From Lingula anatina (taxonomy: Eukaryota; Animalia; Brachiopoda): a DNA stretch of 64,000 nt. Every line of letters starts with the position of its first letter. Position 1 is the stretch's first letter. Positions 2,064-56,073 of this stretch are shown in pieces. The stretch lies in assembly GCA_051362555.1 (NCBI GenBank), contig CM120640.1, positions 63,528,788-63,592,787 on the forward strand. The letters run 5' to 3'. A model generated the notes under the pieces. It was not told the origin of the DNA and searched no databases. It saw only the letters and a list, made by a program, of their open reading frames with translations. The position numbers were made by a program, and so were the translations under genes.

Positions 2064-2489
2064 GTGGAATCTTAATTAATCCGTATTTTTGCAAGGATCG
2101 TGAGGGTTGAGTCGTACTTAGTTTCACATAATGAGGTATGCACTTGCACAATACAAAACTCTTCTTCCATGTACCTGTATTTAGCATTAACATTGAATTG
2201 TGTATTTAATTTCATAAGACGCAATCATAAATTCCCTGCATTACGGTATATAGTGGGACTAATCATTTATGGGGACATAATTAAATAAGCGCTAACTACC
2301 TGATTACGATGGCACAATGATATAATTATTTTATGTCATAACACGGACATTTAAGAAAATGCACTCTCATTTTCGTGTCGTGCATCATTCCTGATCAGCT
2401 GAGTGATCCTGAAAACATTGAAATATTTATCTCATGGTCTGCGAGCGTAATAGAGAAGCATTAAGTGTGACTGACTCCATTGTTTTTAA

Positions 2490-2500
2490 CCAATATAAAT
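2490..2500 (+). promoter_or_regulatory. Putative TATA box of Arg-rich peptide gene 1
   Basis: CCAATATAAA about 95 nt upstream of ATG 2588; the same motif sits at the equivalent position in the paralog (about 13412). Confidence 0.6.
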
Positions 2501-2587
2501 TGGTGTATTTGGGCAGGAACAAGTGTATTCCGATTCTACAACAGACGCGGCAAGCTACGATATCCAGAGATACTCGTGATCTTCAAC

Positions 2588-4043
2588 ATGGCAAAGGTTA
2601 AGATGTTTGCGGCTTTGCTTGTGGTTATGATACTGGTGCAGATGTTTGCTGATTCTGACGGTATGTTACTTACGGTTGCTCGCTCTTTTCGTGGCACAGT
2701 GTAGTGATCCGCCTCGGCTATTTTTCTGATAATTTTACTATCTCTATCTCTCTCTCTCTCTTAAAACAAATGAAGAAAAACCAGCTTTCCTACAAATCAA
2801 TTTGGGTTAAATACATTTGTTTATGTTGTACGAATTCGGAATATTCAAAATATTAAAACCTTTATTAATTTATTCTTACTTCTAGCTTGGCGTAGACGTA
2901 GAAGGCGCAGGCGTAGTGGAAAGAAAATTGAGGACGCTGTGGACGTTGACGCTGCAAACATTGACACGGTATGTTAATCTACTAGTATCAACGTATTCAC
3001 CAAAATATGGAAACGTTTTGTTCTAACACTACTTCCTCTTTATCAAATACCTTTTCTTTCATTGTCAGTGCCATCTTCCAATGACGGTGCTCAGTTTCAT
3101 ATGTTTTTATAAAACATTTATGAAAGGTATTGGCCAATCGGGCTAACCAACGTTTTTTGAGTCTTTTACTTCATTATCAGCTGTCTGACAAAGAGCGCCA
3201 CATGATATGATAAATTTGATTACAGACGACCATGGTGCTTCCCTTTTTTCTTTCTTTCTTTTTTTTTTTTTAGAAAGCTGGCAATGAGTTAATTTTTACT
3301 TCTCTATCAGCGCACAGTATCTAAAAAGATACGAATAAAAAAGAAATATTTATGAATTATATCAGTGACGGATATGTAGACGTTTAGTAAAGACACCTCA
3401 CTACAGTGATAACTCAGCAACCACGATTCTCCTCGGTAGATTGAATTTATTAAAAATCAGACAAATAATTGCAGAAGTATGCGATTTGTTTGAAAGACAA
3501 AGCTGTATGACAGTAATATCTCGAAGACTTTTGAGAATTGGGATGTGTTTCGTGATCAATTTTGACTTAAGTGTCGCTGAGCATCATCAGACTTCACAGC
3601 GATAAATAGATCTTCTGTGAACAATCGTCTTATTTATTCTTTTAATTATATACACTGCAGATGGAAATGCACAATTAAGCTACGATTTTAAATGTGTAAA
3701 TGTAATCAAATTCAAATATCAAAAATTTTTTGAAGGGACATGTACCAGTACTAGATATTTCGTAATTTTCTAACTTGCAGTAAATCCTTCAAAGATTTTC
3801 TTTTGGAGATAAAACATTGAGGTATTTTGCGATGATTCAGAGGTCTTAAAATCAGAGTAACTTTCGATAAAAATCGGGACAATTTTTGAAATCGCTGAAA
3901 GAATTTTTAGCTACAATAATACTTATTGTTTTCGTTTTCAGAACCAGCTGTCCGACCACGAGCGTGACATGATCATCGATCTGCTCAAGGACGACATGAA
4001 CGATCCCGGTGACAAACCGGACGGATACCAAGAAGATGAATAA
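2588..4043 (+). CDS. Secreted Arg-rich peptide precursor 1 (85 aa): signal peptide, WRRRRRRRRS-GKK, acidic pro-region
   Basis: Exons 2588-2660, 2886-2968, 3942-4043 with GT/AG sites and matching phases (1, 0). Translation MAKVKMFAALLVVMILVQMFADSDA-WRRRRRRRRS-GKK-IEDAVDVDAANIDTNQLSDHERDMIIDLLKDDMNDPGDKPDGYQEDE*. A paralog has the same exon structure. Confidence 0.88.
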
Positions 4044-4615
4044 GGGCCATCCAAGAAATTATAACTTCTTGCACGGAGGCAGTTTTCGGCACCCGGAAAT
4101 CATCAGGTGTACTCAAACACGATTAAATTCTTTAGATTGACTTTTCTAACTTAAAAAAGGTCTGTCGGATAACTTCGACTGTCTGGCTTGTATTTTTCTT
4201 CACGCAAGAATATAAATTCATTAAAGATGCATTTCTTCTCATAGAATGTAGAATCTTCTTATAGAATTTAACATGATTCACATGTAAAGTTGAATTCATG
4301 GACAATTCCATACTAGAAGATTGTTTTGAAGAAGGAAAACAAAAATAGATCAAAATGAACTAAAATAGAGCTGAAAGCAGTGATTAGTTGAGAAGACAAA
4401 ACCAACAATAATATCTCTGAGAGAGACTGCTAACAATCCACGATGGCTTTCGTGGTCTATGTCGAATTACTGTAGGTGTCATAGAGCATAAATTCTGTAA
4501 CTAATAAATAGTTATTGCGTGAGCAATCATCTGATCCGCCATTATTTTTATTTGTTTTATATCGTTCTATAAGTACATAAATGAGATATTGGCGTCAAAG
4601 ATATTTTCTCCCTAA

Positions 4616-4838
4616 TACCCCCTTTACACTGGACGGCGTTCTTTCTGCGTCCTTTCTGCGACCATGAAATTTGGCATCTCTGTGGTCTAAATAAGGAGAC
4701 ACGAGCATTGATTTTGTATCAGAATGAATGCTCAATGATCGGCCAGTTGTTGGCACGTAACGTATTATAATTTTTTAACTCTCAAATGGGCCCGTACTGC
4801 TGGACGCAGAAAGGACGCCGTCCAGTGTAAAGGGGCCC
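4616..4838. mobile_element. MITE, PIF/Harbinger (Tourist)-like
   Basis: About 35-bp TIRs (CCCCTTTACACTGGACGGCGTTCTTTCTGCGTCC / GGACGCAGAAAGGACGCCGTCCAGTGTAAAGGGG) with TAA on both flanks. Confidence 0.8.
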
Positions 4839-6014
4839 TAACAACCCAAGTGATTTTCATGTATGTTGTGTGTGACATAATACACTGTCACTCGAGCGAT
4901 AAATGCCCATGCATACAGAAAGAGACTACTCGCATTCCATCGAAAAGCAACCCTTAAACCGAATAAAGGGTATATCGACATTTCTAGTTTGTGTACATGT
5001 ATGTTATTATACAGCATGAGACCATTTTCCTCAAAGCACCTTTCTCATATATTTTTAAAAACTCTCATGATCAGTTGCTCAGATTTGAAAGTAATCCAGA
5101 CCGATGTAAAATAAGATTAAAATGCAGGGACTAAAAGCCAAAAAATCAAGGAAACAATTATATGTAAGGCGTTTTTGTGTACATAGCAGAAACAAAAAAA
5201 ACTGCATTCATTTTGTCTTCATTTCGTAAGTTTGATTCTTATTACACAAATATGACCCAAGCTGAGGAAGTAGTGCCTCTGCTTAACTCTGCTGTTCCGT
5301 ACGATTGCGTTTATGTGTGAGATAATACACTGTCACCCGAGCGATATGTAATAGATAGACCCCGAGTCAGCGAGGGTTATGTGGCATGCACGAGTGCGAA
5401 GCACGTGTGGATGTCACATAACCCTCGCTGACGAGGGATCTATCTTATTTAGACCACGGGTCCATTAGCGGGTTATAACGCATTCATGCGAGACGTGCGG
5501 TTATGCGAGTTACACCACGTCTGAATCTTTTGTTCTTCACTTCCACCGTGGTCTAAATGCCATAACACCTCGAGCGTCAGCGAGAGGGTGACAGTGTATT
5601 ATTTGACATACATACCGAGAAAAAATACAGTCATTTCATTCTAAAACACCCCTAAAACCGAACAAAGTGACCCTATATCACGCTCTAGAGATGTTATACG
5701 AAATAAACTCGTCCACGTGCGCTGGTCACCTCCCGCCAAATTCTTACGTAATGTCTGACCAATTTGGTCATTTTTGCTAAATACTTGTCATGGACGTCCA
5801 ACTGGCTTGAAAAGTATTTAACCGTCGACACTGACCATGCGCGTCTCAGCTGAGCCACACCTAGCTGGGACTGTTGCGGAAAAAAAGGTCCCACGGCAAA
5901 ACCTCTACTTTTTAGTGAGTTTTCTGATAAACAAGGAGCGTCGGACCGGACTATAGTCAAACTAATTTTTCACAAGTGCAAAGGAGAAAGAAATTTACTT
6001 TTTGGTGATATTTA

Positions 6015-6300
6015 TGACAACAAGGCAGTTTCGGAATATAGTCAAAGTTAGACGGATGTTTATTACAAGTTCATGGGAGTAATAATTCTAGTTTTTATTG
6101 TTATTTCTGACGACGAGACGGTTACGGAATATAGTCAAAATCAAGCGGATGTTTATTTCAAGTCCACAGGAGTAATAATTCTATGTTTTCTTTTACTACG
6201 AGGCGGTTTCGGAATATACATATGGTTTTCATGGCATTTATGTGCTACATGTAATTACAAGTTCAGAGGGGGAATAGATTTGATTTTTACCGATATATCT
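6015..6300 (+). repeat. Degenerate tandem repeat, about 90-95 bp unit, 2-3 copies
   Basis: CGGAATATAGTCAAA...GGATGTTTATT.CAAGT.CA.GGAGTAATAATTCTA repeated at about 6032 and 6125; a partial third copy at about 6210. Confidence 0.7.
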
Positions 6301-8741
6301 GATAAAGAGGAAGAATGAACAGCTTAGAAGCAAAAGGTAAATAACACAACCCTCGTTAAAAAGTTGTAGACTTACAAATAATTTGTATGCACGTGTGGCT
6401 TAAATGTTAACTTATTCCCGTTTTCAAACCATAACCATATGATATGACTTAGTGTTATAAAATTATAGATAAAAATTGCTAAACGTGAAATGTTTATGCT
6501 AATTTTTCAAGAGTGTGAGAGATTTTAAATTGGTTTACTGGTAGGTATATTACGCAAGCAACGTCACTTTTCTCTTGATGCCAAGAAGGTCACATGATCA
6601 CTCTGTCTTTGGCTTTCAGGATTTAAGAGACCTCGACTGATTTAACCAAGATGTAGTCGTGAAATTCTAGACTACATCGAGGTTAAATCCGAGTTTTCCG
6701 AGAGACGCTACGTAGAAATGTCGAGTGAAGCGAGATATTTTTGAGTAGCGGCTCGAAGTTGCCCTCGATCTTCACTGAAGCTTGGCTAAATGGACAGGCT
6801 TCACGGCTGTTTCACAATCAGATGTACACTTTATGGTCCATTTTCGACCAAATATGAACTTCACCAAACAGAGGTTTGAATATCAGTAGGGCATTAGTAT
6901 AGATCTTGGGCATAATCCCTTCAAATGTTTTTGCACCGTTTCTCTTTGTTTTTGTTTGACACTAAAATGACTGGATGGTCTCACACTGGGGACGGACGCT
7001 ACATTTTTACAAGTCAATTACATTCACGTGATGAATAAAACATAATAATTGGAAAATAATTATTTTAATAAGCATAATTTTATACACATGAATTGTACTT
7101 GCAATGAAAACCTCAAAATTTCAATCAACTGTGAGCTATTTTTTTCCAAAATGTACGGTTGCATGATGCATGGCCTCATTTCTTTTGCAAATAAAAATAA
7201 AATGTTGTGTGATTAAGATCAAATCAGGGGATTCCATCAATGATTTGAAATCTCTTATTTTGATATGACAAAGCCTTGACCATAAGAATGACACATAATA
7301 AAATACCTAAAACATGTTAAGAGTGCCAAAATTTCATGACTTGGTACGTAATACACTGAGGGACGGACGCTACACCAAAACATGTCATTTTTATATCCCC
7401 ATTCCAAAACATTAACTGTATTAAAATGAATACAAACAGTTCAACAACACATTTACAAATCAATAACAGGAGTGTATCCAGATATATTTTCTGACAGTAT
7501 TACAAATTCTCTGACATACTTTGAATAAGGGTCTCCCCCATCTCCAACTTTCTGCTTGTTTCCTTGCTTGCTATAATTCCTTTCTGTTCTAATATGCTGT
7601 TTACTCTAGGAGATCTTATTAGCCTTTATACAATTTTAGCTTTTCTTCTCGGTGACCTCGGAAGGGCATTCTTTGCTTGTTTCAAGGTGGAGGAAGATGA
7701 AAACGGGCTTGAGTCTTTACCTTGTGGTGTTTTATCTTGTAACTGAACCCTTAGTCTCCATGCTTTACCCCTCAAGACCTCTTTCTTTTTAGCTTCTTCA
7801 CTGAGTTTCATCTTTCTGTTTCTTTCTCTTTGGGCTGTTTCTTTCTCTTCTCTCTCTTGCTTTAGCTGCTTCTGATAAAGCACTGATCTTTGTTTGTTCT
7901 CAGATTTTCTCTCTATATTTTCTCATTCTATCAGTTTCCTTTCCTCTTTCAGCTTTTGCTTATATTGGGTGATTCATTAAGTAAAGTCTCTTCTTTTCTC
8001 TTTCTTTTTCCTTTCTAAGTCTGTCCTTCTCTCTGGCAGTTTTCAAACGTTCGGGATCTTTCTTGAGTTCTTCTCGTTGTTTTCTTTTTTTTTCAAAGCA
8101 CTTTCACTTATGCTAGGGGTGGGCAAATGACAAAATTTTTTTAAAACAGGTGGATTCTATGGCCATTTTTGCTGCTGAACACAAATCTGACAATATTTTT
8201 TACCAAAGCTAAAGATTTATATTGGTATCTGCTATTTGTTTGTGAAAAAAGGCAGGAAATGGCTTTTTGGTCATATTTTCACAGTAAATACATAAAAAAT
8301 ATGTGTAATATGTCTTTCTATATGTTTTGAGGGTTGCTGAGTTCAAATATGAGCATATTCAAGACATTGGCAATATTGCTAGGGTGACATCTGTAAAAAT
8401 ATGTTATTTAAAACAAACATATACATAAAATACACACTTCGAGCCTAAGATAAATATAAATATATAATGGCCATTATGTACATAAGGAATTCATGGATTA
8501 CAGTTTGGTATAAAAACAATGCTGAAAATACCTTCATGGATGTGTACCAACAAATTTTATGCTGTATAATTTTCCTTTTCTTCAGAACAGGTAAAACTTT
8601 GTCAGGTGACATCAACCTCTTACAACCTCTAAGCTCTTGACCTTGGAATAGTACTTAGTTTCAGTTGCGTAGTTTAAGAGTATCTCACCACCACCATGAA
8701 AGCATCAACAAGAAATACACTGAGACCAGAAGGCACTGTAA

Positions 8742-9436
8742 AGCCCCCTGTCACAATTATTTGGAATCTGAAGTAATCAAGCAGAATGAGCCATAATGAA
8801 GAATTTTCAAAATTGCGCCACATTCGTTGGGTAATATCAAATTGACCTTAATTCCAGTAAGAATACCTCAGAATGCGCTTCGAACCCACCTGGATTGATT
8901 CGTGCACATTTTGGTTGTATTGTATTAGCTCTCAAATGCAGCTGAAATGTAGTTGGAACACATTAGGAATATCGTTGATGCTGTCTAAATATAGTGAGAA
9001 TATTAAGAATGCACTTCAAATGCCATATAAGTGTGGTTTCATTGCTGGCTGAATTCTGGCCTGCAATCAAGATGCATTCGAGTTGCATTCCTGCTCATTG
9101 GAGGCACAATGTGGAACATTCTGACAAGATTTGAAGCTCCTTGTCCATTTCGGTTCTCCCTTGAATGTGATCAAAATGTTTCGAATGCTGTTAGAATTTC
9201 GTAAGAATCTTAAGAATGCGCTCATAGTGCAGTTAGAATACACTTGAATGCCATTCGATATTTTTCCACTTGGAAAGTTTTGAGAATGAGCAAAACATTT
9301 TAACGGGACGCAAAAATGGACCCAAACATTTAGAATGGGCTCAAAATTTTTAGATACTTCAAACATCCAGGAATAAACAAGAAATTTTCATTCCAACTAC
9401 ATTCTAGCAAATTCTGCCTCTAGTATGACTAGGTTA
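8742..9436. mobile_element. Nested Harbinger-like MITE rich in GAAT/ATTC motifs
   Basis: Degenerate ends AGCCCCCTGTCACA / TATGACTAGGTTA with TAA flanks; many internal GAATG/CATTC motifs. Confidence 0.45.
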
Positions 9437-9452
9437 TAAATGAAGACAATAA

Positions 9453-11136
9453 GGATATTGTCACCGTTCACCCAAAACTCCTTATTTACTGCCTTACATA
9501 CATTCTTTTCAGTGATAAATAAATTTTCAGTGTTCAGTGATTACATTAGTTAACATTTACACATGTCATCTTACGGGTACGCATAATTGCAGTTTGGGGG
9601 TAAAAACTGAAAAATTGGTTTGTCAAATTTCTGTTTTACCTGAACACCCGTGATCACTATTTCAAAGCCAATTTAATGACACCAATTAGTACCCTAAAAC
9701 CCTGCCAGTGATTTTTTTTAAGCCTTAGTTCAGATTTGATCGTTGATAAAACAAAATTATACCTTTGTTTTTAGAAGACCTGTCATTACGGACTCATAAC
9801 TCCATAACAAAAGCATTTAAAGCAAAACGTTGGCATGGGATTGTAGCTCATGCCCTTGTGGTCCATTGGCCAATTTTCGTGATAAAATCTTGTTCAGGGA
9901 TGAAGTTAAGCCCCATATGGATTGCTAACCTATCTAAAAAAGCTTATCTTATCTAAATAGATGATTAAAGCTTTGAGTTGCTTATGCTTAGGCCACACTT
10001 TTTTATTTTTATGGATGACATCCTCTGGGTACCCCAAAATCGGTGCGAGAGGGCGAAAAAAAAAAAAACGGTCCAAAAAAAAAATACTGCTTAAGTAAAG
10101 GAATGCTGTCAGTACACAGCTGGAAACACAAATTTTACCACAGAAACACTTATCAAACTAACAATATGTCTTTATCCATGCTCTCAAAATATTAAAGCAT
10201 TGTGAATACTTCGTAGAAATGTAAAAAAAAGTCATGGATAGATATACTTTTTATTACAAAATCTATTAAGGTTATTTCATGCATTTTGTTGGTATAGCAA
10301 TCAATAAAACAAATATCAAACAAACAGTGTGTCTTTATTCGTATTCTCAGAATATTAAAGCATTTTGAACACTTCACAGAAATGTTAAAAAAAATGATGC
10401 AAAGATATGCTTAATACTACCAAATCTATTAAAGGTCATTTCAGACGATGCCATTTTGTCTACTTCGACTCACACGGCCAAACTGTCAGGTGGCCTGTCC
10501 GACCTTCAGCCCACCAAATACCTAGACGCCCTTGTCGACCCTTTTTTCGCTACAGAAAACCTGGTAGCCTATGTGCTGCTTTGTACAGAATGTCACTGAA
10601 ATTTTTCGGGCGATAATCGCTGGCGGCCGCCAGCCTTTCGCACAATTGTAAAAAGGTGATATCTCCATGTCCAATATCAATGGCATACCAATCCAAAACG
10701 ACGGCACCCGTTCTCTTTATGACTTTAATTGTCGTGTAATTTGAAAGTTATCCTAGAGATGAATTTGACGGCAAAGCGGCCACATTTCCACGTGGCGATA
10801 ATACGCATGCGCAGAAAGCTCATTTCCTGGCAAATTCAATAACGACGTTTGCACCAACCGACTTTGTTGGGGGGCTGGGGGGGGGGATTTTTTTTTTTTT
10901 TTTTCCGGAGAACGGGTGAAAATCGGTGCGCGCGCAGGATGTCATCCATAAAATTAAAAAAGTGTGGCCTTATACATTGCAACGAAAAAATATAAACGCC
11001 AATATTTCATATTTTCAAGAGTTATTTCATTGTTTCAAAGCAGAACAAAGACAGATACATTATAATTATTGAATAATTAGATGCAGGAAAAAACTCATTT
11101 TTGGTATCTGGATGGTAATAAAGAGTAACAATATCC
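9453..11136. mobile_element. Nested Kolobok-like non-autonomous element
   Basis: Ends GGATATTGTCAC / GTAACAATATCC flanked by ATAA and TTAA; a diverged inverted copy of 9520-9945 lies at about 17850-18280. Confidence 0.55.
9991..10969. mobile_element. Innermost nested MITE (Zator- or PIF/Harbinger-like)
   Basis: TIRs GGCCACACTTTTTTATTTTTATGGATGACATCCT / AGGATGTCATCCATAAAATTAAAAAAGTGTGGCC; TTA on both flanks. Confidence 0.85.
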
Positions 11137-13509
11137 TTAATGCTCTGCTACTGAGTGTTCTACTGTAAATATTTCCGTATGTAACTAACATTATGCCTAT
11201 TCTATATGTCAAAACTTTTCAGTTTCATGTGATCCTTGAACAATATTGACCATATTTGTTGTATTATTGTTTTTCCTAATTTAAAAGCCACAGTTGCATA
11301 TAAACATTTGTATTTATGTACACAGAAATGGTGATTGTGGGGTGATTTTTACCTCAAAATGACCAAAAATTCCTCTTTTTAACCCAAAATGAAGTGACCC
11401 AACCGAAATGATGTATCTATTTGCGCTCATTGATCATGAAATCACATGGTTAGACATATAACAAGCCATCTTTGAACTGATATTTAAAGATTTACATGAG
11501 AAATATCTAATTTGAGGGAGCGTTTGGTGGCCATTTTGAAAAATCACTTGATACCAATATCAGATGTAACTTAAAATGAAAATACTTATTAGATTTGTAT
11601 TCAGCAGCCAAAATGGCCATAGAATCCACTTGTCTGAAATTAAATTTCCCAAAAAAGCTTTCATTTGCCCACCCCTACTTATGCCTTCCATTTCCATGGC
11701 ATTTCTTTTTCTACTTTGACTAAGTTTACCCATCCCCACCAACAATAAAAACATAAATGTTGCTCCATCATTGTTCCAAGCTCAAATGCACAAATTACAA
11801 CCTATTACCTTGGATGAAATATACTGTGGCTTTTTAGTCCAAACTATAACCAAGTGATGTCACTTCGTCTCATACATGTAGCAATTTAAAAGTACACAAG
11901 TGTTGTTTCACAGCAGCAAAAACAACAACATTGTTTCATATTATAACATTGTTTTAAATGTATCCATTTATTCATTACAAGTAATGCACCAAAGCGTCAG
12001 TGACAACCTTGGCCTACATTAGATAGATTATAATGAGTATTTACAAAATATACTTAATTAAAATGCATTTCAGCATGTGTATCCTTAATAAAGCGAAAAA
12101 TACAAATTGGGGACGGGCGCTACAGGTGGGGACGGACGCTACATTTGACCACTAATCAAATGGTATATCCACAGTGTGTCTTACTACTGGCCTTTTAGGT
12201 ATATTATTTTATCATGGGTAGTGAAATGCATAAGTGCCTGAGTGTGGCTTTAAAAAAAGATAAACTGCTATCCTTTTGCTACAGGGGGGACGGACGCTAC
12301 AAAATTTTGTGTTAAGATGTGATTTCAATTTTGGATTGTTGGAATTTTCAACTAAACATGGATTTGGACACAGTAATTTTTTTTAATGTATTGAAATACC
12401 TTTAAAAACACATTTCACTGAAGAAAAGTTATTGTCAAGCACAATATTTCCTTTCAGGGGCTCCTTGAAATCAACTATGTTAAAAACAGAAAAATCCGTA
12501 ACAGAGCTCCCTTTTAACATTCAATGGCTTTTGTCTCATATGTTACACTATATTATGCCCAACTGATTTTCAGACAACATTATACCTCACAACTGATATC
12601 TTTAGTCAAACTAAATGCAATGAATTACAATACCAAATTACATATCCACTACCTGAAATTATTACACAACTCCAGTGACCCTTCGTAACAACTAAAAACA
12701 GCTGTATTTAGGGGATTCAAATAAGTATATTTTTGCCAATCTATGTCCGATTTTCAAAAAAAAATTTTTAATTGCTCCGACTAAGCGCCATCTTCGAGAT
12801 TGGACTAAGGGTGGGCACTAGATTGGTTTTGATAATACTTAGAGGCAATGTAACATGCTCAATTTTGAAAGTGTACGTCTGATTGTGAAATAGCCGTTCA
12901 GTGATCAGCATATCGCCACGGTCATATAACATCCCTAGGTATGTATGTCGAATATTCCATAGTGTCCTCTGCCTTCATGCAATCAGCCCTTCGGGCGTAT
13001 GGCTAAAGAAAGTAATCGAAATTCTAACCATTTGGTAAAACCAAAGTAAATCCCAAGTATAAAAGGTCTGTGAAAATTAGTCATAAGTCAGCAAGCATCT
13101 TTCATGTGTCATCAAAACGAAAAATTCAAATAACATCTCACAGAAAAGCATGTGAAAGCATCTTTTCATAATCCTACTGTATTTCAGCCGTAGGAAAGAT
13201 ATTGGTCTATGGAATCTTAAAAGGGCCAAAGCAAAAATGTGACCTTTCTGCGTGTTTAATGCATTTTGCACATTGCGATCGTTTCGCCAAGAGGAAGAGG
13301 AGTATTCATTTTCATAGCATCAGGGGCGGGTGGATAGGATGGGAATAAACGTGAAGCCTAACACCCAAAACCCTTTCTGCACATGCGTAAACCATTGACT
13401 TCACTACTTGGCCAATATAAAGCGGCGTATTTGAGAAGGAACAAGTTTATTCCGATACTACAACAGACACGACAAGGCGTGATATTTAGAGATACCCGTG
13501 GTCTTCAAC

Positions 13510-16500
13510 ATGGCAAAGGTTAAGATGTTTGCGGCTTTGCTTGTGGTTATGATACTGGTGCAGATGTTTGCTGATTCTGACGGTATGTTACTTACGGTTG
13601 CTCGCTCTTTTCGTGGCACAATGTAATGATCCGCCTCGGCTATTTTTCTGATTATTTTACTCTCTCTCTCATCGTGTGCTCGTAACATTTTTCCGACGAT
13701 TAGTTTAAGTTAGTTTTACGTTTATCAAAGCTGTGCAGATGCGGTGTATTAAATCACTTTGACTTAAGCTTATTGTTTTATTTGTTCTTATTTCTAGCTT
13801 GGCGTAGACGCAGACAGATTCAGAGCAAGAGAGTCGCTGACGCTGATAACACTGACAGGGTATGATAATTCATTTAATCTTTTATGAAAACCTCTTGTTC
13901 TATCACTTAATTCCATCCTTACTACGCATATTCTTTTTTGTAATGAAAAATCGGTGACAAACCGAGTGAGATGACGAAGATTGATAAACAGCACTATATG
14001 CTTACGGATATACATGTACTCTTTTGACAACCGAAATTAGTGTGAACTCGGCAATCATGCTTCTGCGCAATAGGTTATTTTTTTCAAATTACCAGACAAA
14101 TAATTGCAGAACTGTGCGATTTTTGTGAAGACAAAAGTGTCTTCCAATAATTATTCAGCGTCACAATGGTTTTATTTGACTTGTGTATAGAACATCTTTG
14201 CAAAAATAAAAGAAGTGGTAAAGATGTGTTTTTATGTCAGGGAGATCTGATATTGTGCTGTGGCTTTGAAATATTTCGATTCCCTGAGGCCACGGCCACT
14301 GTGGTAGAGAAAATAAAGTTATTGACCGACCTTTATTGGGTGGATAGTAGTAGATTTGCTGATGTCTATCTGACTTCTTTACACAAAATCTATCGGAACC
14401 CGTGTGATAAAACCACGGACGTGTTGTTCTTTATACCAATGGAGACTTTCATAATTTTGCATTATGCGATATACCTAGAATTTATCTCCTCAATTCTTAA
14501 GTCGTAAGCCAGTCAATCGCCAGTCCAAGAATGCTATAATCCTTGACATATTTCGTCTGGATGATAGTATCGTCAACAAATGTGAAACCAAAGATATAGA
14601 AACCACTTCAGAGCAGGACATACCGAGTCTCGCTGATGTGATTACAGTTTACTCTAATACTTGCAATGGATCTACCTATGATGTCGTTATCAAACAACTA
14701 AGAAAACACTAAATTACAAAAGGAAGTTCACTGGCTGAAGTCGCAACTCCCGACCTATTGTCACAGCCATCGCTGTAGCCAGTGGTACCGCGCTCCAGAG
14801 CGCAATGTCATCAATGAAACTGCTGTGATGGATGACGCCATAGTAATAATAACGAACAAGATAATGACAATTCTGAAACTTAAAATATTTTAGTAAATAT
14901 TAAGACTTCATTGCCGGGGTGATGCACACCGGCCCTACGGTCAATTTAGAACTAAATAAGGGAGCCACTACGAAGACTCAAATCAAACCGGTCGTCACGG
15001 CCGTGGACATAACGAAATTTTTCGTAATTTTGTCCATGTCACGGCAAACAGCGGTCACTCTGCCAACGTTATTAAACCTGGGCCCCGTAACTCGAAAGCA
15101 TCGCGATATCACATAGAGGCTACAATGTATTATTTGGGGCGAGTATGGTCGAGTTATGGAATCGAGACGCTTGCGCTCGGTCGCAATGCGCGATGGTTTC
15201 GAGTTACGGGGCCCAGTTGTTAGCGCCCAGGTCTCAAACCCAATAAATTTATTGACAACTTATCCCATAATAATGATAACAATGATATCATCGCACATGT
15301 GGTCAGTATGGGAATTAACAGCGTTGAGAAATGCAAGATCCTCTCAGAAAAATAAGGGAAGAAGTTATTTGTGGTCACCGTACCATCTGTTTTATAAAAT
15401 AATGAATATCATGCCAGACTCATATTGGTCGTACACTGTATATAAAAAAAATTATGATTCTCTAAAAGCTACTGTTAAATGGAATGGATTATCAAGTGAA
15501 ACCTTCAGCATTTCCAGTGGAACTAGACAGGGGAGTATATTGTCGCCTGTTCCTTTCAACGTTTTTATGGATGGCTTGTTACACATCTTTCACATGCTAA
15601 CGTGGGAGTCAAATTCGGAGATGTTACGTATAACAGCCTAGCATACGCGGACGATGTCACAGTCTTCGCAACAATTGCGCCTGGACTTCAAGTTTTGGTT
15701 GATATTTGTTTTGATTATGCAAGGACGTAGAAAATGCCATTTGGTAAAGAAAAATAAAAATGTATAATTGCTGGAAAGTCACTGCTAAGCCAAACACACG
15801 AAGTCCGCCTGGGGCAGAATTTTATGAAGAACGACGACTCGCTGGACAAACTTTGTGTTACATTCAATAGAAATAATACAGCGGATGACTACATAGCCTA
15901 CAGGCGTAACAAAAGCATTCCGTATGTCTTATGGCGTGTGTTATCCGGGCTTAGATATCAAACCATACCTTCTATGTGGCGAACAATAGTATCACCGGCC
16001 AATATCACTTACGAAGTTCATTCGGTTTGCACGCCTCAGAAACACCTGCAAACGAATTTGTTACTAGATTTATGGGTGTTTCCTCCAGATTTTGTGCATC
16101 AGAGCTTTTAAAAGAAATTCCAAATACTAATGCTGCTGCTTTTAAATCAGGCAAATTTCTATTCTATAAGACCATGACCATTGACTCACCGTGCCGTAAG
16201 ATTAATTTTATCGTATCAACTATCTCATTTAATACTCAATCACTCATTGATGAGAGGGACCCTGCTTTAATGATATCTTTTGGTATAAGCCCAATTTTAT
16301 GTACAGTATGATAAACATGAAATCTGCTAGCAAAGGGTCACGGGACCATCAGGACTAGTTTACACGTTGAGCTTTCTATATAGTTAATAGTTCCAGATAA
16401 CAGGAAAGACAATCTAAGGCTGTATTCCCAGAGCTTTTAGATCGATCTATCCCCGCGGGGAGTCTCACTAGAATACTGTCAGATAATCCGGCTTAAATGT

Positions 16501-16990
16501 CCGTCCCGCCTACTACAAGCTGTAAGGGGGTAATTAACTTTCGTGTCCGCTCGGCTGACAGCTATTTAGCGTGAACCCCCAGGGAGTTAGGTCGATCTAA
16601 AGTAGATCGATCTAATCTCTGGAAATGGGGTCTAAGGAATACATGCTTGTGGGACTATTTTTAAAATCTTTTTAATTGGCCTCTATTTACACTGTGTTAT
16701 TTTTATGTATTTCGTTTTATTCCATCTCATTCTAACTTATTTTATTTTATTTGTTTATTTTTCATTTTTTTAAAGGTGGTTATATAAATAAATAAATAAA
16801 TAAAACGGATTCAGAGTTGTTTGTACTATTGGTAACACCCAATGTCATTCTTGGAATCGTCACTAGAGCTTTTGACTAAAATATACATATATTTTTTCAG
16901 AACCAGCTGTCTCACAAAGAACGCGAAATGGTTATCGATCTGCTCAAAGACAAGATAGCAATGAACGACGATGATGGTGAAGAAGATTAA
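13510..16990 (+). CDS. Secreted Arg-rich peptide precursor 2 (74 aa): signal peptide, WRRRRQIQS-KR, acidic pro-region
   Basis: Exons 13510-13582, 13798-13859, 16901-16990 with GT/AG sites and phases 1, 0. Translation MAKVKMFAALLVVMILVQMFADSDA-WRRRRQIQS-KR-VADADNTDRNQLSHKEREMVIDLLKDKIAMNDDDGEED*. 5' and 3' UTRs are homologous to gene 1. Confidence 0.85.
15078..15216. mobile_element. Small MITE (Harbinger-like)
   Basis: TIRs CTGGGCCCCGTAACTCGAAAGCATCGCG / CGCGATGGTTTCGAGTTACGGGGCCCAG. Confidence 0.8.
15400..16805 (+). mobile_element. Degenerate non-LTR retrotransposon (LINE) RT fragment in intron 2 of peptide gene 2
   Basis: VKWNGLSSETFSISSGTRQGSILSPVPFNVFMDGLL, then AYADDV (GCATACGCGGACGATGTC at 15641) in a shifted frame; stops and frameshifts; (AAAT)n tail at about 16786-16804. 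Confidence 0.85.
16418..16632. mobile_element. MITE family A, copy 1 (Harbinger-like, GATCGATC subterminal repeats)
   Basis: TAA-GGCTGTATTCCCAGAG...TAGATCGATCTA ... TAGATCGATCTAATCTCTGGAAATGGGGTC-TAA; homologous to 56494-56708. Confidence 0.8.
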
Positions 16991-18339: not shown

Positions 18340-19364
18340 CTATATGCGTTCTTCTCCTCTTACGATGCGCTCGTACAGCTCAGCATCAAGAGGAACAAAC
18401 GCACGTTTCGTCTCATCCAGGAAGTAGAGTTTGTCGTCTTTAACTTCGCTAGGTTTAAACCCTTGTGCTTTGAGTTGTTCTTTCCTCTGTTTGTACGTGC
18501 CTGTCAGATCTAATGTGTGCTGGACACGCAGGAAAAGTGGCCTGGCATAAGCTGGGAGACTGTCGGAAAGACGATTGTAGATATTTTCAAACAGTTGCCA
18601 TGTTAATTTCTTTTCTTTCTGCAACGTGACAGCAGCCATACCAACTCTACCCTCTTTACCGAATTACGACAAAAGCATGAGAATTAGAGCCAAGGGGAGA
18701 CGATTTTGTCTTAGAAAACAGTTTGGGTGTTGAGAGGCCCGTTGTCTTTTGTGAGTGAAAAGTGAAGGCTAAAGGCGTTTTCATATCTGTGAGGTTAATA
18801 GTGGCTTCCCAACCCTTACCTGGCACTTTGACCCCATACACGCTGGCGTCCTCCACGCCTTCTACCTCTGCTAGAACGTTAGCGACCTCTAGTGTGGAAA
18901 CGTTCTCTCCTTTCCATCTACAACACCAAACGTATCGTCTCAACCATTGTGTAGTAGATAAAGATATAATAGTATAATGTCTTTTTTTACTTACTGCATA
19001 TGAATTACACTTGTTTCGTGAATGAAAAAAAAATGAGAAAAAAGGAAGAAATCAACCATTTTCGACCCATATAATTATGTGTTGCTCAGCTCAAGGAGTT
19101 GTTTGAGACAAACTCTTTGCACAGATGTATACCTTCAAATTACTGAATCCTATATGATGCTTTACCTAAATGTATCCCCAACTCTGTCACTGAAGTAAAG
19201 AAAATAGTTACTGTCGGTGTACAGTAAGTCTCCGGAGTTGAAATATGCATCACCTTGTTGGAAAACGTTGCGTAATATTTTCTTTTCTGTCAACCCTTTG
19301 TTCCCTTTATAACCCTCAAAGGTAAAATTTCCTTTTATGGCTGCTATCAACAGACCGGGTTCTC
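18340..19364 (-). pseudogene. SLC27A: SLC27/FATP very-long-chain acyl-CoA synthetase, 3' three exons only
   Basis: Exons 19364-19166, 18917-18820, about 18659-18340 encode [11 protein letters not shown]...[19 protein letters not shown] (FATP signature), YGVKVPG.EGRVGMAA and LPAYARPLFLR. No 5' exons recognised; the last acceptor reads CG instead of AG. Confidence 0.75.
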
Positions 19365-19818
19365 CTAGGAAGGGAAGAACAAGTCATGATAAATAACTAG
19401 AAATAAAATCAGCAGCATTCAGCAATGACGAACGCCTACATATAAACACTCACCACCGAGTATACAAAACTGTGCTAAAATTTGGAATTGCTTGCTGAAG
19501 GTTGCTTTTTTATACAATCGATGTGAATGCATAGAGACATTATAGTGGTTACTTAATATTCAATTAAAAATTCTTATTACAGGAAAGTACTGTGTGCCAC
19601 ACCTCTACCGACAAGAAACGTTAATGTCAGTAGAAAATGATCAAGGCAAATAATGTTGATAAATGATAATAATAAAAATGATAGTGATAAAAGGTCTACA
19701 TTGTACCTATCTCGACAGGGATACAACGTTCATTTCTTACAGGTTCGTCGTCCTCGTGATCATACTTAACCAAGAAGCTCGGGAACACTAGTTGCTGAAA
19801 GCATGTTGATACGTGTTT

Positions 19819-19820
<2 letters not shown>

Positions 19821-19871
<51 letters not shown>
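19821..19871. repeat. (TA)n microsatellite
   Basis: About 25 TA units. Confidence 0.95.
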
Positions 19872-19874
<3 letters not shown>

Positions 19875-19930
19875 CTATGTCAGCTCAATCATTTATCCAC
19901 ATTGTGATCAAAGTCGTGTTTGTGTTGTAG

Positions 19931-20525
19931 GGAATGACCTCGTATACCTTATGACAAATGACCGACGTTATAAGCTTCATGTGGACATGGAAGATGTGAC
20001 GGGAAACAAAACCTATGCTCTCTATAACTTCTTTGCCATTGAATCGGAAAAGAGTAACTGCAAACTGAAACTGGGCGTATACACAGGCAATGCAGGTAAG
20101 CCTCGTGTACATGAAGTCACAAACTTATTCCTAAAAGTATGCACCTTTTAAGAAATAGATATAACCAGCTGTCTAAATAAGTTTTAAAAAATCAAAATGA
20201 AAAGTAAGGCCCAAGCACAATGCGCAGAATTAGTTCTTCATTGTTATTTTTCAGGTGACTCTCTTTCTAAATCATAATGGGTATCCGTTCACCACAAAAG
20301 ACAAGGATAATGACAAAGTATTGAAAATTGTGCAAAATATTACAAAGGTGCCTAGTGGTATGTAGTCTGTCCAGTCTAAATGGTTTGTACCACCTTGGTC
20401 CACATACATTATACGCTGATGGTATTAACTGGCACTCATTTAAAGGTTACTACCATTCTTTAAAAAGAACCGCAATGAAGATTCGACCTATCGGGTTTAA
20501 TACCGAATCTGTTGTCATTGGATAG
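19931..20525 (+). pseudogene. Fibrinogen-related domain (ficolin/FReD-like) pseudogene, last two exons
   Basis: Exon 19931-20095 GNDLVYLMT...YKLHVDMED..GNKTYALYNFFAIESE...LKLGVYTGNAG. Exon from 20255 GDSL../HNGYPFTTKDKDND../CAKYYKGA*WY../SLNGLY...DGINW..FKGYYHSLKRTAMKIRP, with frameshifts and an in-frame TAG. Confidence 0.85.
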
Positions 20526-22164: not shown

Positions 22165-25100
22165 TTAAACAATAGTAAACATGGCCTCTAAGACATTGGA
22201 TGGAGCATGTGTGAACTGGTTAGGTTGCTGACCCCCTGCATACACCTTAATTCGACCTGGAAGACAGAAATTTTTCTTGTTAAACACTGAAAATTGAAAA
22301 TGTTTGAAAATAAATAATCAAACTCCCTATCCCTATTCTACCACTTCCCCAGGGGTCAGTCTATCATTAAAATACATCTGTGAAAAAGAGTCAGTATGAA
22401 GATGTAAGTTACATGAGAACATCATTAGCTACTATTGTGTACCATCCATTACTGTTATTATGTAAAAATGTTTTTTTTTTCATCAATAGAATAATCTGAG
22501 ATAATTCCAAGTGAAGCAAGTCCCTTGGCTACCTATACCTTTATACAATGCTATCAAATTATGTGTTGAAAAGAAAAGTTAAATTATGACAATGAAGAAA
22601 AACTCCATCATATTCCTATGGATAATGTCTGCTACCATTGATCTGACATGAATAGACCACTCGGGGAAAATCTGTGCGCAAATATTCATTACCTGGTTCA
22701 ACTACGCAAATATTCATTACCTGGTTCAACTACAAATCCCTTATTGTCCTCCCACACTGCCATTTGTTCTGCTGTGATGACAAACTTGTGTGTGACTGTC
22801 TGGCCCTTTTGTATATTGACTCTAGCAAAGCCAGCTAACTGATATCTGGGGACAACGACCTTGGCATCCATCCACATTATGTATATTTGAATAACCTGGA
22901 ATTTCCATCAATATTGCTTTTAACCAAAAGTGAAGTCATTTCTTTGACAAACATATTCATTCCAATTTCTCAGTTTCCTTTTACCTGGGATCTACCTGAC
23001 AGAAAAATAACCAGGACCCACCTGGTGGGTCCCAGTTTTTACCTATCTTACCTTTTTTCTATACAGAAATATGTAACTGCAAGAAGGTATTTCCAATATA
23101 TTTCTGGTATTCTTGGCAATTGTCATTATCATCAGAATTGGTTTAAGTAATTTTACCTAAATGCTCATTACATATGAAGATTAAGGCTGTCACTGCACAC
23201 AATAGTCACTTCCTTTAAATTCATAAGCCTGAAATATGCACAAGGTTGACAATAACAAAAGTTCCATTTCAATTTAAATAAATATACATAGACATGTCTT
23301 TCAAATTGTCCTTGGTATTTTCCAACATCAAGAACATATGAACATCATTTACCTCATCTCCTGGTAAACTTCCAATATTTGTCACATTGACAGCAATAGT
23401 GGCATTATTTCCAGCTCTCACAGTCACTGGCACAATCAGGTCTGAGTACATGAACTCTGTATAAGAGAGACCATAGCCATAAGGGAAGAGAGGGTCACCT
23501 GGCCCAATCCAGTACCTGTATGTGCGCCCTATCATTGTATAATTTGTTATCGGTGGTACCTGAATATTAAAAACATTCTTAAATCACAAGTAAACTACTG
23601 AGCATTATTTTTTATAGTTTCATAGAATCATTAGAGGAAAGTGTTAGAAATATCTGGTCAAAAATTCAGTATCTACTCTATTAACCCTATAAAATATTAA
23701 TAACATTACACTCTTTTAATATACTAGCCAACATTAACAATTTACACACCCTACTGTATAACCCTTTAGAAATATTTCTCAATCACCTGTGCATCGTTAG
23801 CCGGCCACGTAGCAGGCAGCCTGGCTGCAGGATTACCATGAGCCCCTTGGTTCCACAACACCTGTATAATGGCATCACCTGCTGCCTGTGCTGGGTAGAA
23901 GCAAGCCAAAATGGCTGACACCTTGGAGCTCTCCTTTGCCCATTGCACATTCACAGGACCAGCATTGAAGAGCAACAGGATCACTGGCTTTCCACTAGCT
24001 GGGAAGATGAATATTTATCTCCTGTTTATCAACCAATGCCAAACTCAATATCAGGATACAGATATATCTATTCAAATCATAATTGTAATTCTTACATATG
24101 CTGACACATTAGCAAATCCATGTTGCCAGGATGGGTTGGATAGGGGCATTGGGGGGGGGGGGGGAACAATGACACATTTGCTGAAAGAAATGAGGTAAAT
24201 GTAAAATAGCAGATAAGGGCAATTCTACTACAATATATAGAGTACAAGAATGGAAAATCATTTGTTTTTGTCTAGTTTTGCTTGTTATACTGTTTTTAAG
24301 AGGGAGAAGGGTTACCTGAGAAGCTATTGCCCCCCCCCCCACATCTGCCATTTCTGAAGTCTTAAAAAAACACTGTATCCTAAAAATTAAGTGCTGTAAG
24401 TGAAATAAAAAACAGATCAGTTTTGATATACAAATATTTAAATTTCTATACATCATATTGTGCAAAGCAATTATCATTTAGAGTTTGAAGTTATAGCTGT
24501 GGTCACCTACCAATTCTGGTTGATTTTCACAGCAGTTAAGAGGATATTTATTTAATAATTTTACATTATTAGTAATTTTACATTATTATTATTAGTAACA
24601 TTATTTAAAAAATACCTGCAGAAGCAGCATCCATGATGAGCCTTGATTGGTTGCCTGGCAGCTCGAGACTACTGCGATCCTTGCCCTCTGCTTCTAAATT
24701 CCAACCTAAAATTTTCCAGGTAAATATGGCATACCAAATTCATTAAAACCTGGCCAAATGTATTAAATAAATATATGCAATAAAACCTTTCTTATGCTAT
24801 AACTTACTGTTAGATATTTTCATATTCCTAATTTCAATCATTTGATAGAAAAGTGATGAAGTTAACTTGTAAACATTATAAAACTAATAAAAAATATACA
24901 TCAAACTAATAAAAAAATAGTTACAAGTTTAAATGGGACTTTGCATGAACCATACAGAAATGAAACCATATTCAGGTCTAAAACAGTAAAAGCATCAAAG
25001 GAACCATACCTATTCCTGCACAAATCACCACTGCATCCACGTTTTGTGCTGCAGCATTGATGACTGCTGTTGGGTTGTAATTTGTGCATGGGTTGAGGTC

Positions 25101-28100: not shown

Positions 28101-28168
28101 ATACATCCATGGAGTTTACACAATGGTAAGATACTAGCTAGTACTGCTGGGGTCAACCCCCCCCCCCC

Positions 28169-28204
<36 letters not shown>

Positions 28205-28745
28205 AAAGAAAATTAATTTTAAAAACTTTAAAAAACATAAAACAAAGCAAAATCCTCCATCTGCTTGTTTCTTTTTTATTTCTACTAAATATGTTGTTGA
28301 TACACACATTCATTTATACATTTTTAAACACAGGTGTGTTTGGGGGTGGTTCTTTGTTTACTTTACGTTCACTATGTTGAAATTAATTACCAAAATCTAC
28401 GCTGCGCAATAAAATTCTCATAGCCTACCTAAATGCTGCAGCCAGTCCCAGAGCTTGGGGAAAAGTAGTAGCTGTGCCTCCATAACCTACCCCACGCAGG
28501 CACTCATTGTTCCATTGATGGGGGGCGATCCCCAGCCGAGGTATCGCCGGCGCAGGTCCTCCCGGTCCTGCGCCTCCTTTAGCCATTTGAAGAATAATCT
28601 CTTCCAATGTTAATCTGTCTACAAGATCGTTCACCCTATCTGCCCATGGCAGAGACGTGTTTCTAAATGGATAGTCGAACGTAAAAGATGCATAAAAATG
28701 AAATGTCACCAGGACAGCAACGAGCACCCTCCTTGCAACCGCCAT
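22165..28745 (-). CDS. Glycoside hydrolase family 3 beta-D-xylosidase-like protein (secreted or lysosomal), about 12 exons
   Basis: Signal peptide; YPFRNTSLPWADRVNDLVDRLTLEE, ATTFPQALGLAAAF, RHPYWGRNQETYGEDP, CKHF, VMCSYNR, GYVVSDEGA (nucleophile Asp), NPAARLPATW, GRTYRY..PLFPYGYGLSYT and an Fn3-like C-terminus; stop at 22165-22167. Confidence 0.93.
22678..22733. repeat. Exact 28-bp tandem duplication spanning a GH3 splice donor
   Basis: GCAAATATTCATTACCTGGTTCAACTAC twice in tandem. Confidence 0.95.
27245..27406. mobile_element. Intronic MITE with TTAA flanks (piggyBac-like ends)
   Basis: CCCTGTTTCAACTCACAATTTTGATAT / ATATCAAAATTGTGAGTTGAAACGGGG. Confidence 0.7.
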
Positions 28746-29051
28746 TTTCCAATCATGTGACTGGAGAATTTGACCTAATTTAGGTTTTCACCTGATCGGT
28801 TTTATTGGACTTACGATTGAACAACACGAGTAATAAAAACAGGAGTATTCGAAATATAGCCAGTAGTAACGTATCGCACGCACAATGAACAAAAATAATC
28901 TAATCTAAAACATTTAGGTCAAGGGGGATTCCAGTTAGTGACGTCACAACTGAGGGGATTCTCTAACCCAAATGTAAACAATGCACACGTGGAGAATTCT
29001 CACGGTACAGAATCAACAGATGATAAACCGGCATGTATCACCAAATTGACG
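28746..29051. promoter_or_regulatory. Bidirectional promoter between the GH3 and JmjC-KDEL genes
   Basis: Divergent ATGs about 306 bp apart; TGACGTCA (28939-28946), CACGTG (about 28985), ATTGG/CCAAT motifs, GGGGGATTCC (28923-28932). Confidence 0.65.
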
Positions 29052-51532: not shown

Positions 51533-51793
51533 CTACCGAAACGACAGCCTTCTCGATATTTGCGTCCTTATCACGCTTCTCTTGATACATCGCCCCCTAC
51601 AGGAAATTAATTGAGCATTCGACACGAAACGTTTGTATTCTTGGACTTGCACCCTAATAATGTCATCCAGGAAGGCTAAAGTATCGTCATCTGATTCACA
51701 CTCCGAGGAAGAACAAACTCCGCAAGCTTCTAGTTCTTCTGATTCAGAATCTAGTAGTTCAGAAGGAGAGAATGCGAAGGTATTTTGAGCCAT
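51533..51793 (-). CDS. Candidate 86-aa ORF upstream of BLOC1S3 (unrecognised)
   Basis: ATG in GAGATGG context; acidic S/E/D-rich N-half and basic C-half; no family recognised. Confidence 0.35.
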   Translation of the reverse strand: MAQNTFAFSPSELLDSESEELEACGVCSSSECESDDDTLAFLDDIIRVQVQEYKRFVSNAQLISCRGRCIKRSVIRTQISRRLSFR

Positions 51794-52099
51794 CTCTTAT
51801 CATGGTCTGTTTAACCTTAATTTTAAATGCCCCTGATGTTTACTGTGCCTTACGCTATATCAGCACTACCATATCCCAGGCCCACAGATTTTACAAAGTG
51901 AATTTTCCTCTCTCACAGTTAAGAGAAGTCCATCATTTAACTAGAGACATATCTGTTAATATCTATAGAAAAATCAATTTGTGGACCTGGTAGATGGCAC
52001 TCAAATGTACATTAAATGATAAACCTTAAATAAAACACTGAGGCAGCGCGTTAGTATAACACAGAAATGCATGTCTGTCTGAAGTGTAGAATATACACT

Positions 52100-55962: not shown

Positions 55963-56073
55963 TTGTGTACTACATTAACACTAACTATTTGAATACTGTT
56001 TTGTCTTTTCAGGGCTGTTAATATGAGATTTATAACATATAAGTTTAATTATAAAAGTTGAAGGCTACTGATA

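What the first reader, a model, noticed from the sequence alone, without database searches (positions are those of the whole stretch)
2588..4043. Spliced gene predicting a secreted, amidated octa-arginine peptide (WRRRRRRRRS-NH2)
Seen: three short exons splice in frame to a signal peptide ending in D-S-D-A, then W-R8-S-G-K-K, then a 47-aa acidic tail. The Arg run uses mixed codons (CGT AGA CGT AGA AGG CGC AGG CGT), so it is not a simple microsatellite. Established: Gly followed by a dibasic site is the prohormone convertase/carboxypeptidase E/PAM amidation signal. Signal-cationic-anionic precursors are typical of invertebrate linear antimicrobial peptides (tunicate clavanins and styelins, mussel myticalins). 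R8/R9, often Trp-tagged, is the standard synthetic cell-penetrating peptide. Inference: a natural, genome-encoded oligo-arginine antimicrobial, toxin, cell-penetrating or polyanion-binding peptide. I do not recognise the family.
Basis: partly seen in the sequence, partly recalled or inferred. Interest (0 to 1): 0.92.

Follow-up and report, generated by a model that had tools for sequence, protein, structure and literature searches.

The report
Brachiopod secreted octa-arginine peptide precursor
The lamp shell Lingula carries a small duplicated gene whose product is predicted to be secreted and likely releases a ten-residue peptide made almost entirely of arginine, probably as an antimicrobial defence peptide, which would be a natural counterpart of the synthetic octa-arginine used to carry cargo into cells.

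Summary
The gene is as described: three GT-AG exons give an 85-aa precursor with a signal peptide, W-R8-S-G-K-K and a 47-aa acidic tail. The window is Lingula anatina. A profile of the acidic exon found only the Lingula protein among 1.84 billion representatives.

The layout matches mussel myticalins and Ciona linear cationic peptides, but their family tests fail, so this is a separate lineage-restricted family. Best reading: a linear cationic host-defence peptide precursor (0.55). The exact amidated decapeptide is less secure (about 0.25-0.3): the Arg run holds five overlapping furin-type sites, KK|I is a poor convertase site, and the glycine is not a family feature. No junction reads were obtained; one RNA read covers exon 1 only. 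The Lingula immune-gene survey could not be read. Interest 0.55.

The parts
2490..2499 (+). CCAAT/TATA-like element about 95 nt upstream of the ATG of gene 1, kept in both paralogues
   Evidence: function inferred
2588..2660 (+). Gene 1 exon 1: signal peptide (24 codons + 1 nt)
   Evidence: hydropathy peak 3.6 at residues 9-17; same in RefSeq model; one RNA read inferred from bin depths to cover 2588-2660
2886..2968 (+). Gene 1 exon 2: end of Ala25, W-R8-S-G-K-K, start of acidic tail
   Evidence: matches RefSeq except S35N
2888..2926 (+). Codons for W-R8-S plus G-K-K (predicted mature peptide and processing signal)
   Evidence: processing inferred
3942..4043 (+). Gene 1 exon 3: acidic tail with predicted amphipathic helix, and stop
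4122..4225 (+). Candidate poly(A) signals ATTAAA at 4122 and 4220
   Evidence: untested
13412..13421 (+). Same CCAAT/TATA-like element upstream of gene 2
13510..13582 (+). Gene 2 (paralogue) exon 1: identical to gene 1 exon 1 at 73 of 73 nt
13798..13859 (+). Gene 2 exon 2: W-R4-Q-I-Q-S-K-R, no Gly, start of acidic tail
   Evidence: AG and GT at the ends
16901..16990 (+). Gene 2 exon 3: acidic helix exon, 17 residues shared with gene 1 exon 3; 74-aa precursor in all

Best explanation
Two tandem Lingula anatina genes encode predicted secreted precursors (signal peptide, short Trp/Arg-rich cationic segment, acidic tail) that likely yield linear cationic host-defence peptides, of which gene 1 would give a ten-residue Trp-octa-arginine peptide. 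Shown: gene structure, duplication, conserved signal, divergent cationic segment, acidic tail. Inferred: signal peptidase cuts after Ala25 (or after Ser23, with the Asp-Ala dipeptide trimmed off); the acidic tail (net -14 against +8 to +10) masks the cationic segment in the secretory pathway and may shield the Arg run from convertases; cleavage at the dibasic site, carboxypeptidase trimming and, for gene 1 only, PAM amidation release the peptide; it binds anionic microbial surfaces through guanidinium groups, with the single Trp as anchor, and more likely enters cells or clusters lipids than forms amphipathic pores.
For: The three-part layout matches that described for myticalins (PMC5577615 passages; PMC12294457 section 3.3) and Ciona LCAMPs (PMC7387483). 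The divergence pattern is that of such families: signal exon 0 of 73 nt different, against 17 of 98 upstream and 78% identity over intron 1, with the cationic segment the part that changed most. The acidic helix looks constrained: over 17 codons pS 0.49, pN 0.12. Both genes put a dibasic pair at the cationic/acidic border (KK, KR). The RefSeq copy keeps R8 and G-K-K. Myticalin C peptides start with Arg stretches and synthetic C6 and C9 are antibacterial; Trp/Arg-rich Ciona peptides KH.C1.640 and KH.C7.94 are active at 6 uM or less on E. coli. Tandem clustering is also described for myticalins. The RefSeq accession is not among the 54 Lingula shell proteins listed.
Against: No activity, peptide or tissue data. 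No junction read; 1 read in 4 partly read RNA runs, on exon 1 only. The product would be 9-10 aa, shorter than myticalins (17-47 aa), and has no amphipathic helix; PMC12371492 finds poly-R works together with an uncharged segment, which is almost absent here, and seawater salt would weaken a purely electrostatic peptide (inference). Five furin-type sites lie in the run. P1' is Ile or Val and KK is a weak site (recalled rules). The codons for S, G, K, K are each one change from an Arg codon (4 of 4; 8 of 9 non-Arg codons over both genes, p about 0.02 at a base rate of 0.49; a pattern noticed first and tested after), so G-K-K may be an eroded Arg run rather than a selected amidation signal. The pooled dN/dS test over 31 alignable codons is not significant (Fisher p 0.09) and the 9 codons at the 3' end of exon 2 show pN above pS. 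No NF-kB-like site was found in about 2 kb upstream of either gene. The RefSeq model has 31 extra N-terminal residues, which would make the signal internal if that start is used.
Confidence: 0.55

Rival explanations
1. The Arg run is a polybasic pro-segment. A furin-type convertase cuts at RRRR|S, carboxypeptidases remove the arginines, and the acidic tail with its conserved helix is the mature product.
For: Only W-R4, a full R-X-R-R site, is shared by both paralogues at the start of the mature region. The acidic helix exon is the best-conserved mature part (pN 0.12 against pS 0.49). L9R can be cleaved by furin (PMC11394684). The amidation Gly is absent from gene 2.
Against: A pro-segment needs four basic residues, not eight. 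A second dibasic pair at the acidic border in both genes would be redundant. Conserved anionic helices are also the rule in Ciona AMP pro-regions, so tail conservation does not favour this reading.
Confidence: 0.2
2. The protein or its Arg peptide is a structural or polyanion-binding secretion (phosphate, glycosaminoglycan, mucus, periostracum or adhesive) rather than an immune effector; Lingula builds an apatite shell.
For: Guanidinium binds phosphate and sulfate (established chemistry). A block polyampholyte (+10 then -14) suits condensed granule storage. Tryptic shell proteomics could not see the Arg segment.
Against: XP_013381668.1 is not among the 54 shell matrix proteins listed in PMC13425148 Data S1, and tail motifs were not found in that supplement, which includes peptide sheets. 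Luo 2015 reports no secreted acidic proteins among Lingula shell proteins. Other secretions were not examined.
Confidence: 0.13
3. The released oligo-arginine acts on the animal's own or a neighbour's cells, as a convertase inhibitor, cell-penetrating signal or deterrent.
For: Octa-L-arginine inhibits furin with Ki 0.061 uM and tetra-arginine about 100-fold less; amidation raised the potency of hexa-D-arginine (PMC11394684). R8 is a standard cell-penetrating motif.
Against: No cargo or target motif in the peptide; these are in vitro properties of synthetic peptides; nothing in the locus points to it.
Confidence: 0.07
4. Gene 1 is a silent or decaying duplicate and makes no product.
For: No read lay on gene 1 exons 2 or 3 in the 4 runs laid (6-30% of each read). 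The one read on exon 1 went on unlike gene 1, which fits another copy (inference).
Against: ORF, splice sites and upstream element are intact in both genes; synonymous changes are over-represented in exon 3; RefSeq models the same junctions. The tool rates the three empty runs as no test, as no control shows the same population in them.
Confidence: 0.05

Closest known systems
Myticalins, especially subfamily C (Mytilus; PMC5577615, PMC12294457)
   Same: Signal / cationic / dibasic site / anionic extension; conserved signal with hypervariable mature part; N-terminal Arg stretches in subfamily C; Gly-dibasic amidation predicted in subfamilies A and B; tandem genes; processing likewise only predicted.
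   Different: Different signal sequence; different intron positions (myticalin signal and mature peptide share one exon, here a phase-1 intron falls at the signal end); mature part 9-10 aa against 17-47; no sequence hit; brachiopod, not mussel.
Ciona linear cationic AMPs: Ci-MAM family and Trp/Arg-rich KH.C1.640, KH.C7.94, KH.L136.4 (PMC7387483)
   Same: Signal, Trp/Arg-rich segment, C-terminal anionic helix. By eye the Lingula helix starts L-S-x-x-E like that of Ci-MAM-D/E in the paper's table; not tested statistically.
   Different: Ciona peptides are selected as amphipathic helices with several hydrophobic residues and Arg runs of 3-5; they are proposed to be cut before acidic residues, not at dibasic sites; no sequence hit.
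Natural AMPs with poly-R motifs such as Tilapia piscidin 4 (PMC12371492)
   Same: Clustered arginines as the membrane-recruiting part.
   Different: The paper gives 3-5 concatenated R as typical, attached to a hydrophobic helix; here eight, with one Trp only.
Synthetic octa-arginine cell-penetrating peptides and polyarginine furin inhibitors
   Same: R8 core; Trp tag and C-terminal amide are common synthetic features (recalled).
   Different: This one is genome-encoded inside a precursor; release and activity are untested.

Membership tests
Myticalins | Signal / cationic / anionic three-part precursor | tested here: met
   core +8 and +4, tails -14 and -8
Myticalins | Conserved myticalin signal consensus ending in C-E-G | tested here: not met
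   compared by eye with the consensus; the Lingula signal ends D-S-D-A
Myticalins | Signal and mature peptide in one exon; one phase-1 coding intron in the anionic extension | tested here: not met
   phase-1 intron at the signal end, phase-0 intron in the tail
Myticalins | Lys-Arg (or Arg-Arg) site before the anionic part | tested here: inconclusive
   KR in gene 2, KK in gene 1
Myticalins | Mature peptide of about 17-47 aa | tested here: not met
   9-10 aa predicted
Myticalins | Sequence similarity in signal or anionic extension | tested here: not met
   only the Lingula protein was found
Ciona Ci-MAM / LCAMP | C-terminal anionic helix | tested here: met
   AlphaFold2 helix at 88-101 of P0121, single sequence, pLDDT about 60, low confidence
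Ciona Ci-MAM / LCAMP | Cationic amphipathic helix as active part | tested here: not met
   W-R8-S has one hydrophobic residue
Ciona Ci-MAM / LCAMP | Family signal-peptide consensus and sequence homology | tested here: not met
   by eye against the two consensus strings; no hit
Linear cationic AMP (functional class) | Antimicrobial activity of the mature peptide | not testable with these tools
   needs synthesis and MIC assays
Linear cationic AMP (functional class) | Expression in barrier or immune tissue, or induction by microbes | tested here: inconclusive
   1 read in 4 runs of unknown tissue; no GGGRNNYYCC site upstream
PAM-amidated peptides | Gly followed by a dibasic site that is actually cleaved | tested here: inconclusive
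   G-K-K in gene 1 and in the RefSeq copy, absent in gene 2; cleavage not testable
Lingula shell matrix proteins | Presence in the shell proteome | tested here: not met
   XP_013381668.1 absent from the 54 entries of Data S1; motif searches empty

The most novel reading that the evidence does not exclude
Lingula secretes an intact, amidated Trp-octa-arginine decapeptide, a natural version of the synthetic R8 cell-penetrating peptide, kept safe from furin-type convertases by its own acidic pro-helix and used as a cell-entering antimicrobial or convertase-blocking effector; the paralogue pair would record a poly-Arg run growing or eroding by 6-nt slippage and point change.
Probability: 0.25. Interest if true: 0.8.

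Novelty: new variant of a known kind. Interest (0 to 1): 0.55.

Why it matters
No linear cationic defence peptide from a brachiopod turned up in the open literature searched, so this would be an early candidate for the phylum. Natural poly-R motifs are usually 3-5 residues on a hydrophobic carrier. A secreted, almost pure R8 peptide would show that evolution uses the same minimal motif as synthetic cell-penetrating peptides, and would pose a testable question: how does an oligo-arginine, itself a furin substrate and inhibitor, get through the secretory pathway? The R8 and R4 paralogues are a ready-made pair for testing run length. The peptides are 9-10 residues, so the tests are cheap.

Tried and rejected
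No whole genome is held, so copy number outside the window is unknown. No RNA holder listed (only runs added by species label); this says nothing on expression. Of 9 listed runs 4 were laid on gene 1: 1 read, no joints; the other 5 runs and gene 2 have no read data. The word search with exon 3 found no candidate among proteins of 33-105 aa; the RefSeq protein, 116 aa, lay outside that range. Pfam: no family above cut-off for five exon pieces or P0121. PDB sequences: 1 hit, E 2.1. ESM Atlas: no feature hit for exon 2 or P0121, structure rows TM 0.50 or less. The AlphaFold2 model is low confidence (pLDDT 64, pTM 0.27) and was not used for a fold search. Earlier scan findings: none. The accessions appear in no paper. 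'wrrrr' with 'signal peptide' gave 8 papers, 7 listed, of which only the Ciona one was relevant. Gerdol et al. 2018, the Lingula immune-gene survey, is not held and may already list this gene. Membership of myticalins and Ci-MAM was rejected on signal sequence, intron positions and lack of homology. A protamine-like nuclear protein was rejected because of the signal peptide and acidic tail. A chance microsatellite ORF was rejected because of the paralogue and the RefSeq model. No SignalP or ProP was available; cleavage sites rest on hydropathy, regular expressions and recalled rules. The cationic segment itself was not searched by profile, so unrelated proteins that begin W-poly-R after a signal peptide were not surveyed.

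Full report
Observation. The coordinates are right. Exons 2588-2660, 2886-2968 and 3942-4043 join in frame to an 85-aa ORF. Both introns are GT-AG; the first is phase 1 and splits the Ala25 codon, the second is phase 0. A hydrophobic core at residues 6-17 is followed by D-S-D-A, W-R8-S-G-K-K and a 47-aa tail of net charge -14. Ser at -3 and Ala at -1 fit the signal-peptidase rule (recalled); a cut after Ser23 also fits and would leave an Asp-Ala dipeptide before the Trp. The Arg run is beyond chance: none of 60 Markov simulations of the window gave a run above 5. The codons are mixed but form a degenerate 6-nt repeat.

Organism and independent model. A SNIP1/FHA gene at 51660-54013 is 100% identical over both exons to a protein named Lingula anatina, so this is a brachiopod. 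A search with the signal exon returned 1 candidate, RefSeq XP_013381668.1 (LOC106152583, uncharacterised, a cluster of one). Its last 85 residues equal the predicted precursor except S35N, so R8 and G-K-K are kept. It is listed on a 653,682-bp contig, the SNIP1 match on a 704,450-bp one, so it is probably another haplotype or a third copy. It carries 31 extra N-terminal residues; 24 match the frame upstream of the ATG here and the first 7 are not in the window within 2 mismatches. The shared CCAAT/TATA-like element about 95 nt upstream of both ATGs favours the short start, but this is not settled.

The paralogue. A second gene lies 10.9 kb downstream on the same strand: exons 13510-13582, 13798-13859, 16901-16990, 74 aa. 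Exon 1 is identical at 73 of 73 nt, while the 98 nt upstream differ at 17 positions and intron 1 is 78% identical. That is either strong constraint or recent gene conversion; the first 88 nt of intron 1 are 94% identical, which fits conversion. The cationic segment is W-R4-Q-I-Q-S-K-R, without Gly. The first 17 codons of exon 3 show pS 0.49 and pN 0.12, but the pooled test over 31 alignable mature codons gives p 0.09, and 9 codons at the end of exon 2 lean the other way. The family constants are therefore the signal, W-R4, a dibasic pair at the acidic border and an acidic helix (AlphaFold2 helix 88-101 of P0121, low confidence). R8 and the amidation Gly are particular to gene 1.

Relatives. 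A profile of the two exon-3 sequences against 1,835,955,588 representatives found 1 protein at E 0.001 or better, the Lingula one. Pfam, PDB sequences and the ESM Atlas gave nothing usable. The profile had two short sequences, so distant relatives can be missed, and no eukaryote genome search was available.

Expression. Four of nine RNA runs with the same species label were laid on 2400-4400, 6-30% of each read. One read, 99%+ alike, lay there. From bin depths it covers 2588-2660, stopping at the first donor, in the orientation expected of a + strand RNA in a usual stranded library, and it goes on unlike gene 1. Since exon 1 is shared, it likely comes from another copy. It is below the tool's reporting threshold, and the three empty runs are no test. 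Splicing and expression of gene 1 remain unshown by reads.

Mechanism. The layout is that of linear cationic AMP precursors. Myticalins have signal, cationic peptide, Lys-Arg site and anionic extension, with conserved ends and a hypervariable middle, often Gly before the site; subfamily C starts with Arg stretches, and synthetic C6 and C9 are antibacterial (PMC5577615, passages; PMC12294457, passages and section 3.3 part 1; their processing too is predicted only). Ciona precursors have signal, cationic region and anionic helix, and Trp/Arg-rich members are active, some in 500 mM NaCl (PMC7387483, passages and part 2 of 5). I infer that the acidic tail masks the cationic segment until release and that the freed peptide binds anionic microbial surfaces (0.55). 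With one hydrophobic residue it cannot be an amphipathic pore former; uptake or lipid clustering is more likely, and PMC12371492 (passages) finds that poly-R works with an uncharged segment, which is a point against strong killing.

Why the amidated decapeptide is uncertain. The run holds five overlapping R-X-R-R sites, the last RRRR|SG, and gene 2 has one. L-nona-arginine is cleaved by furin, while octa-L-arginine also inhibits it at Ki 0.061 uM (PMC11394684, passages). KK is a weaker site than KR, and both dibasic sites have Ile or Val at P1' (recalled rules). The S, G, K, K codons are each one change from an Arg codon, as are 4 of the 5 non-Arg codons at the same place in gene 2 (8 of 9, p about 0.02; tails 15 of 46 and 12 of 36; a pattern noticed first and tested after), so G-K-K may be the eroded end of a longer Arg run. 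That does not stop it from working as an amidation signal. The rival in which the run is a convertase site and the acidic part the product gets 0.2; a structural or phosphate-binding role 0.13. The RefSeq accession is not among the 54 shell proteins in PMC13425148 Data S1 (supplement part 1 of 132; term search of the file; main-text passages), and PMC4595640 reports no secreted acidic shell proteins (passages; supplement PDF searched by term, tables held as pictures would be missed).

Known families and novelty. It works like a myticalin or Ciona LCAMP precursor but belongs to neither: signal sequence, intron positions, mature length and homology tests fail. Searches found no paper on the accessions, none joining brachiopod, antimicrobial peptides and arginine-rich, and no description of such a peptide in the listings (titles and abstract starts only). 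A 2025 review of marine invertebrate AMPs has no mention of brachiopods (PMC12466427, term search); PMC7203481 cites big defensins in rhynchonelliform brachiopods (passages); bioRxiv 10.64898/2026.08.23.746575 does not mention Lingula (term search). Gerdol et al. 2018, the Lingula immune-gene survey, could not be read and could hold this gene.

Verdict. A real, intact, duplicated, apparently Lingula-restricted secreted-peptide gene family; a new variant of a known precursor kind, unusual for eight straight arginines where 3-5 is typical. Interest 0.55; the natural amidated R8 reading has probability about 0.25 and would deserve 0.8.

Noticed in passing
window 13412-16990 +: Tandem paralogue of the peptide gene; no protein record with its signal turned up among 36-118-aa proteins (one search returned only the gene 1 type), so it may be unannotated.
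   Followed up: yes
window 2490-2748 and 13412-13670: Identity between paralogues peaks over exon 1 (100%) and the first 88 nt of intron 1 (94%) and drops on both sides, which suggests a gene-conversion tract.
   Followed up: partly
window 15117-15641 +: Decayed reverse-transcriptase fragment in intron 2 of gene 2 (RVT_1, E 2.6e-4, under the cut-off).
   Followed up: partly
window 4619-4835, 5353-5445, 15078-15216, 8114-11677: Several inverted-repeat elements (MITE-like hairpins; a 3.5-kb element with 27-69-nt inverted ends and an inner pair at 9965/10995) between and inside the peptide genes.
   Followed up: no
window 18340-19051 -: Last exons of a gene that reads like a fatty-acid transport protein (SLC27; recognised by eye, no Pfam hit for the last exon), ending 1.3 kb from gene 2, tail to tail.
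   Followed up: partly
window 19810-20151 +: Isolated fibrinogen C-domain fragment (E 5e-11) on the strand opposite the neighbouring gene.
   Followed up: no
window 23269-28787 - and 28899-29543 +: GH3 glycosidase gene (E 1e-17) head to head with a cupin/JmjC-like gene (E 1e-3, under the cut-off), starts a few hundred bases apart.
   Followed up: no
window 44210-48058 -: A 1282-codon open frame, low complexity, Ser/Lys/Glu-rich, with no Pfam match.
   Followed up: no
window 36499-36771 -; 51660-54013 +; 56062-57156 +: 2OG-Fe(II) oxygenase exon, SNIP1/FHA gene used to identify the organism, and exons resembling TMTC-type proteins (by eye, no Pfam hit).
   Followed up: partly
window 5966-6309: Degenerate 93-99-nt tandem repeat, four copies.
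   Followed up: no
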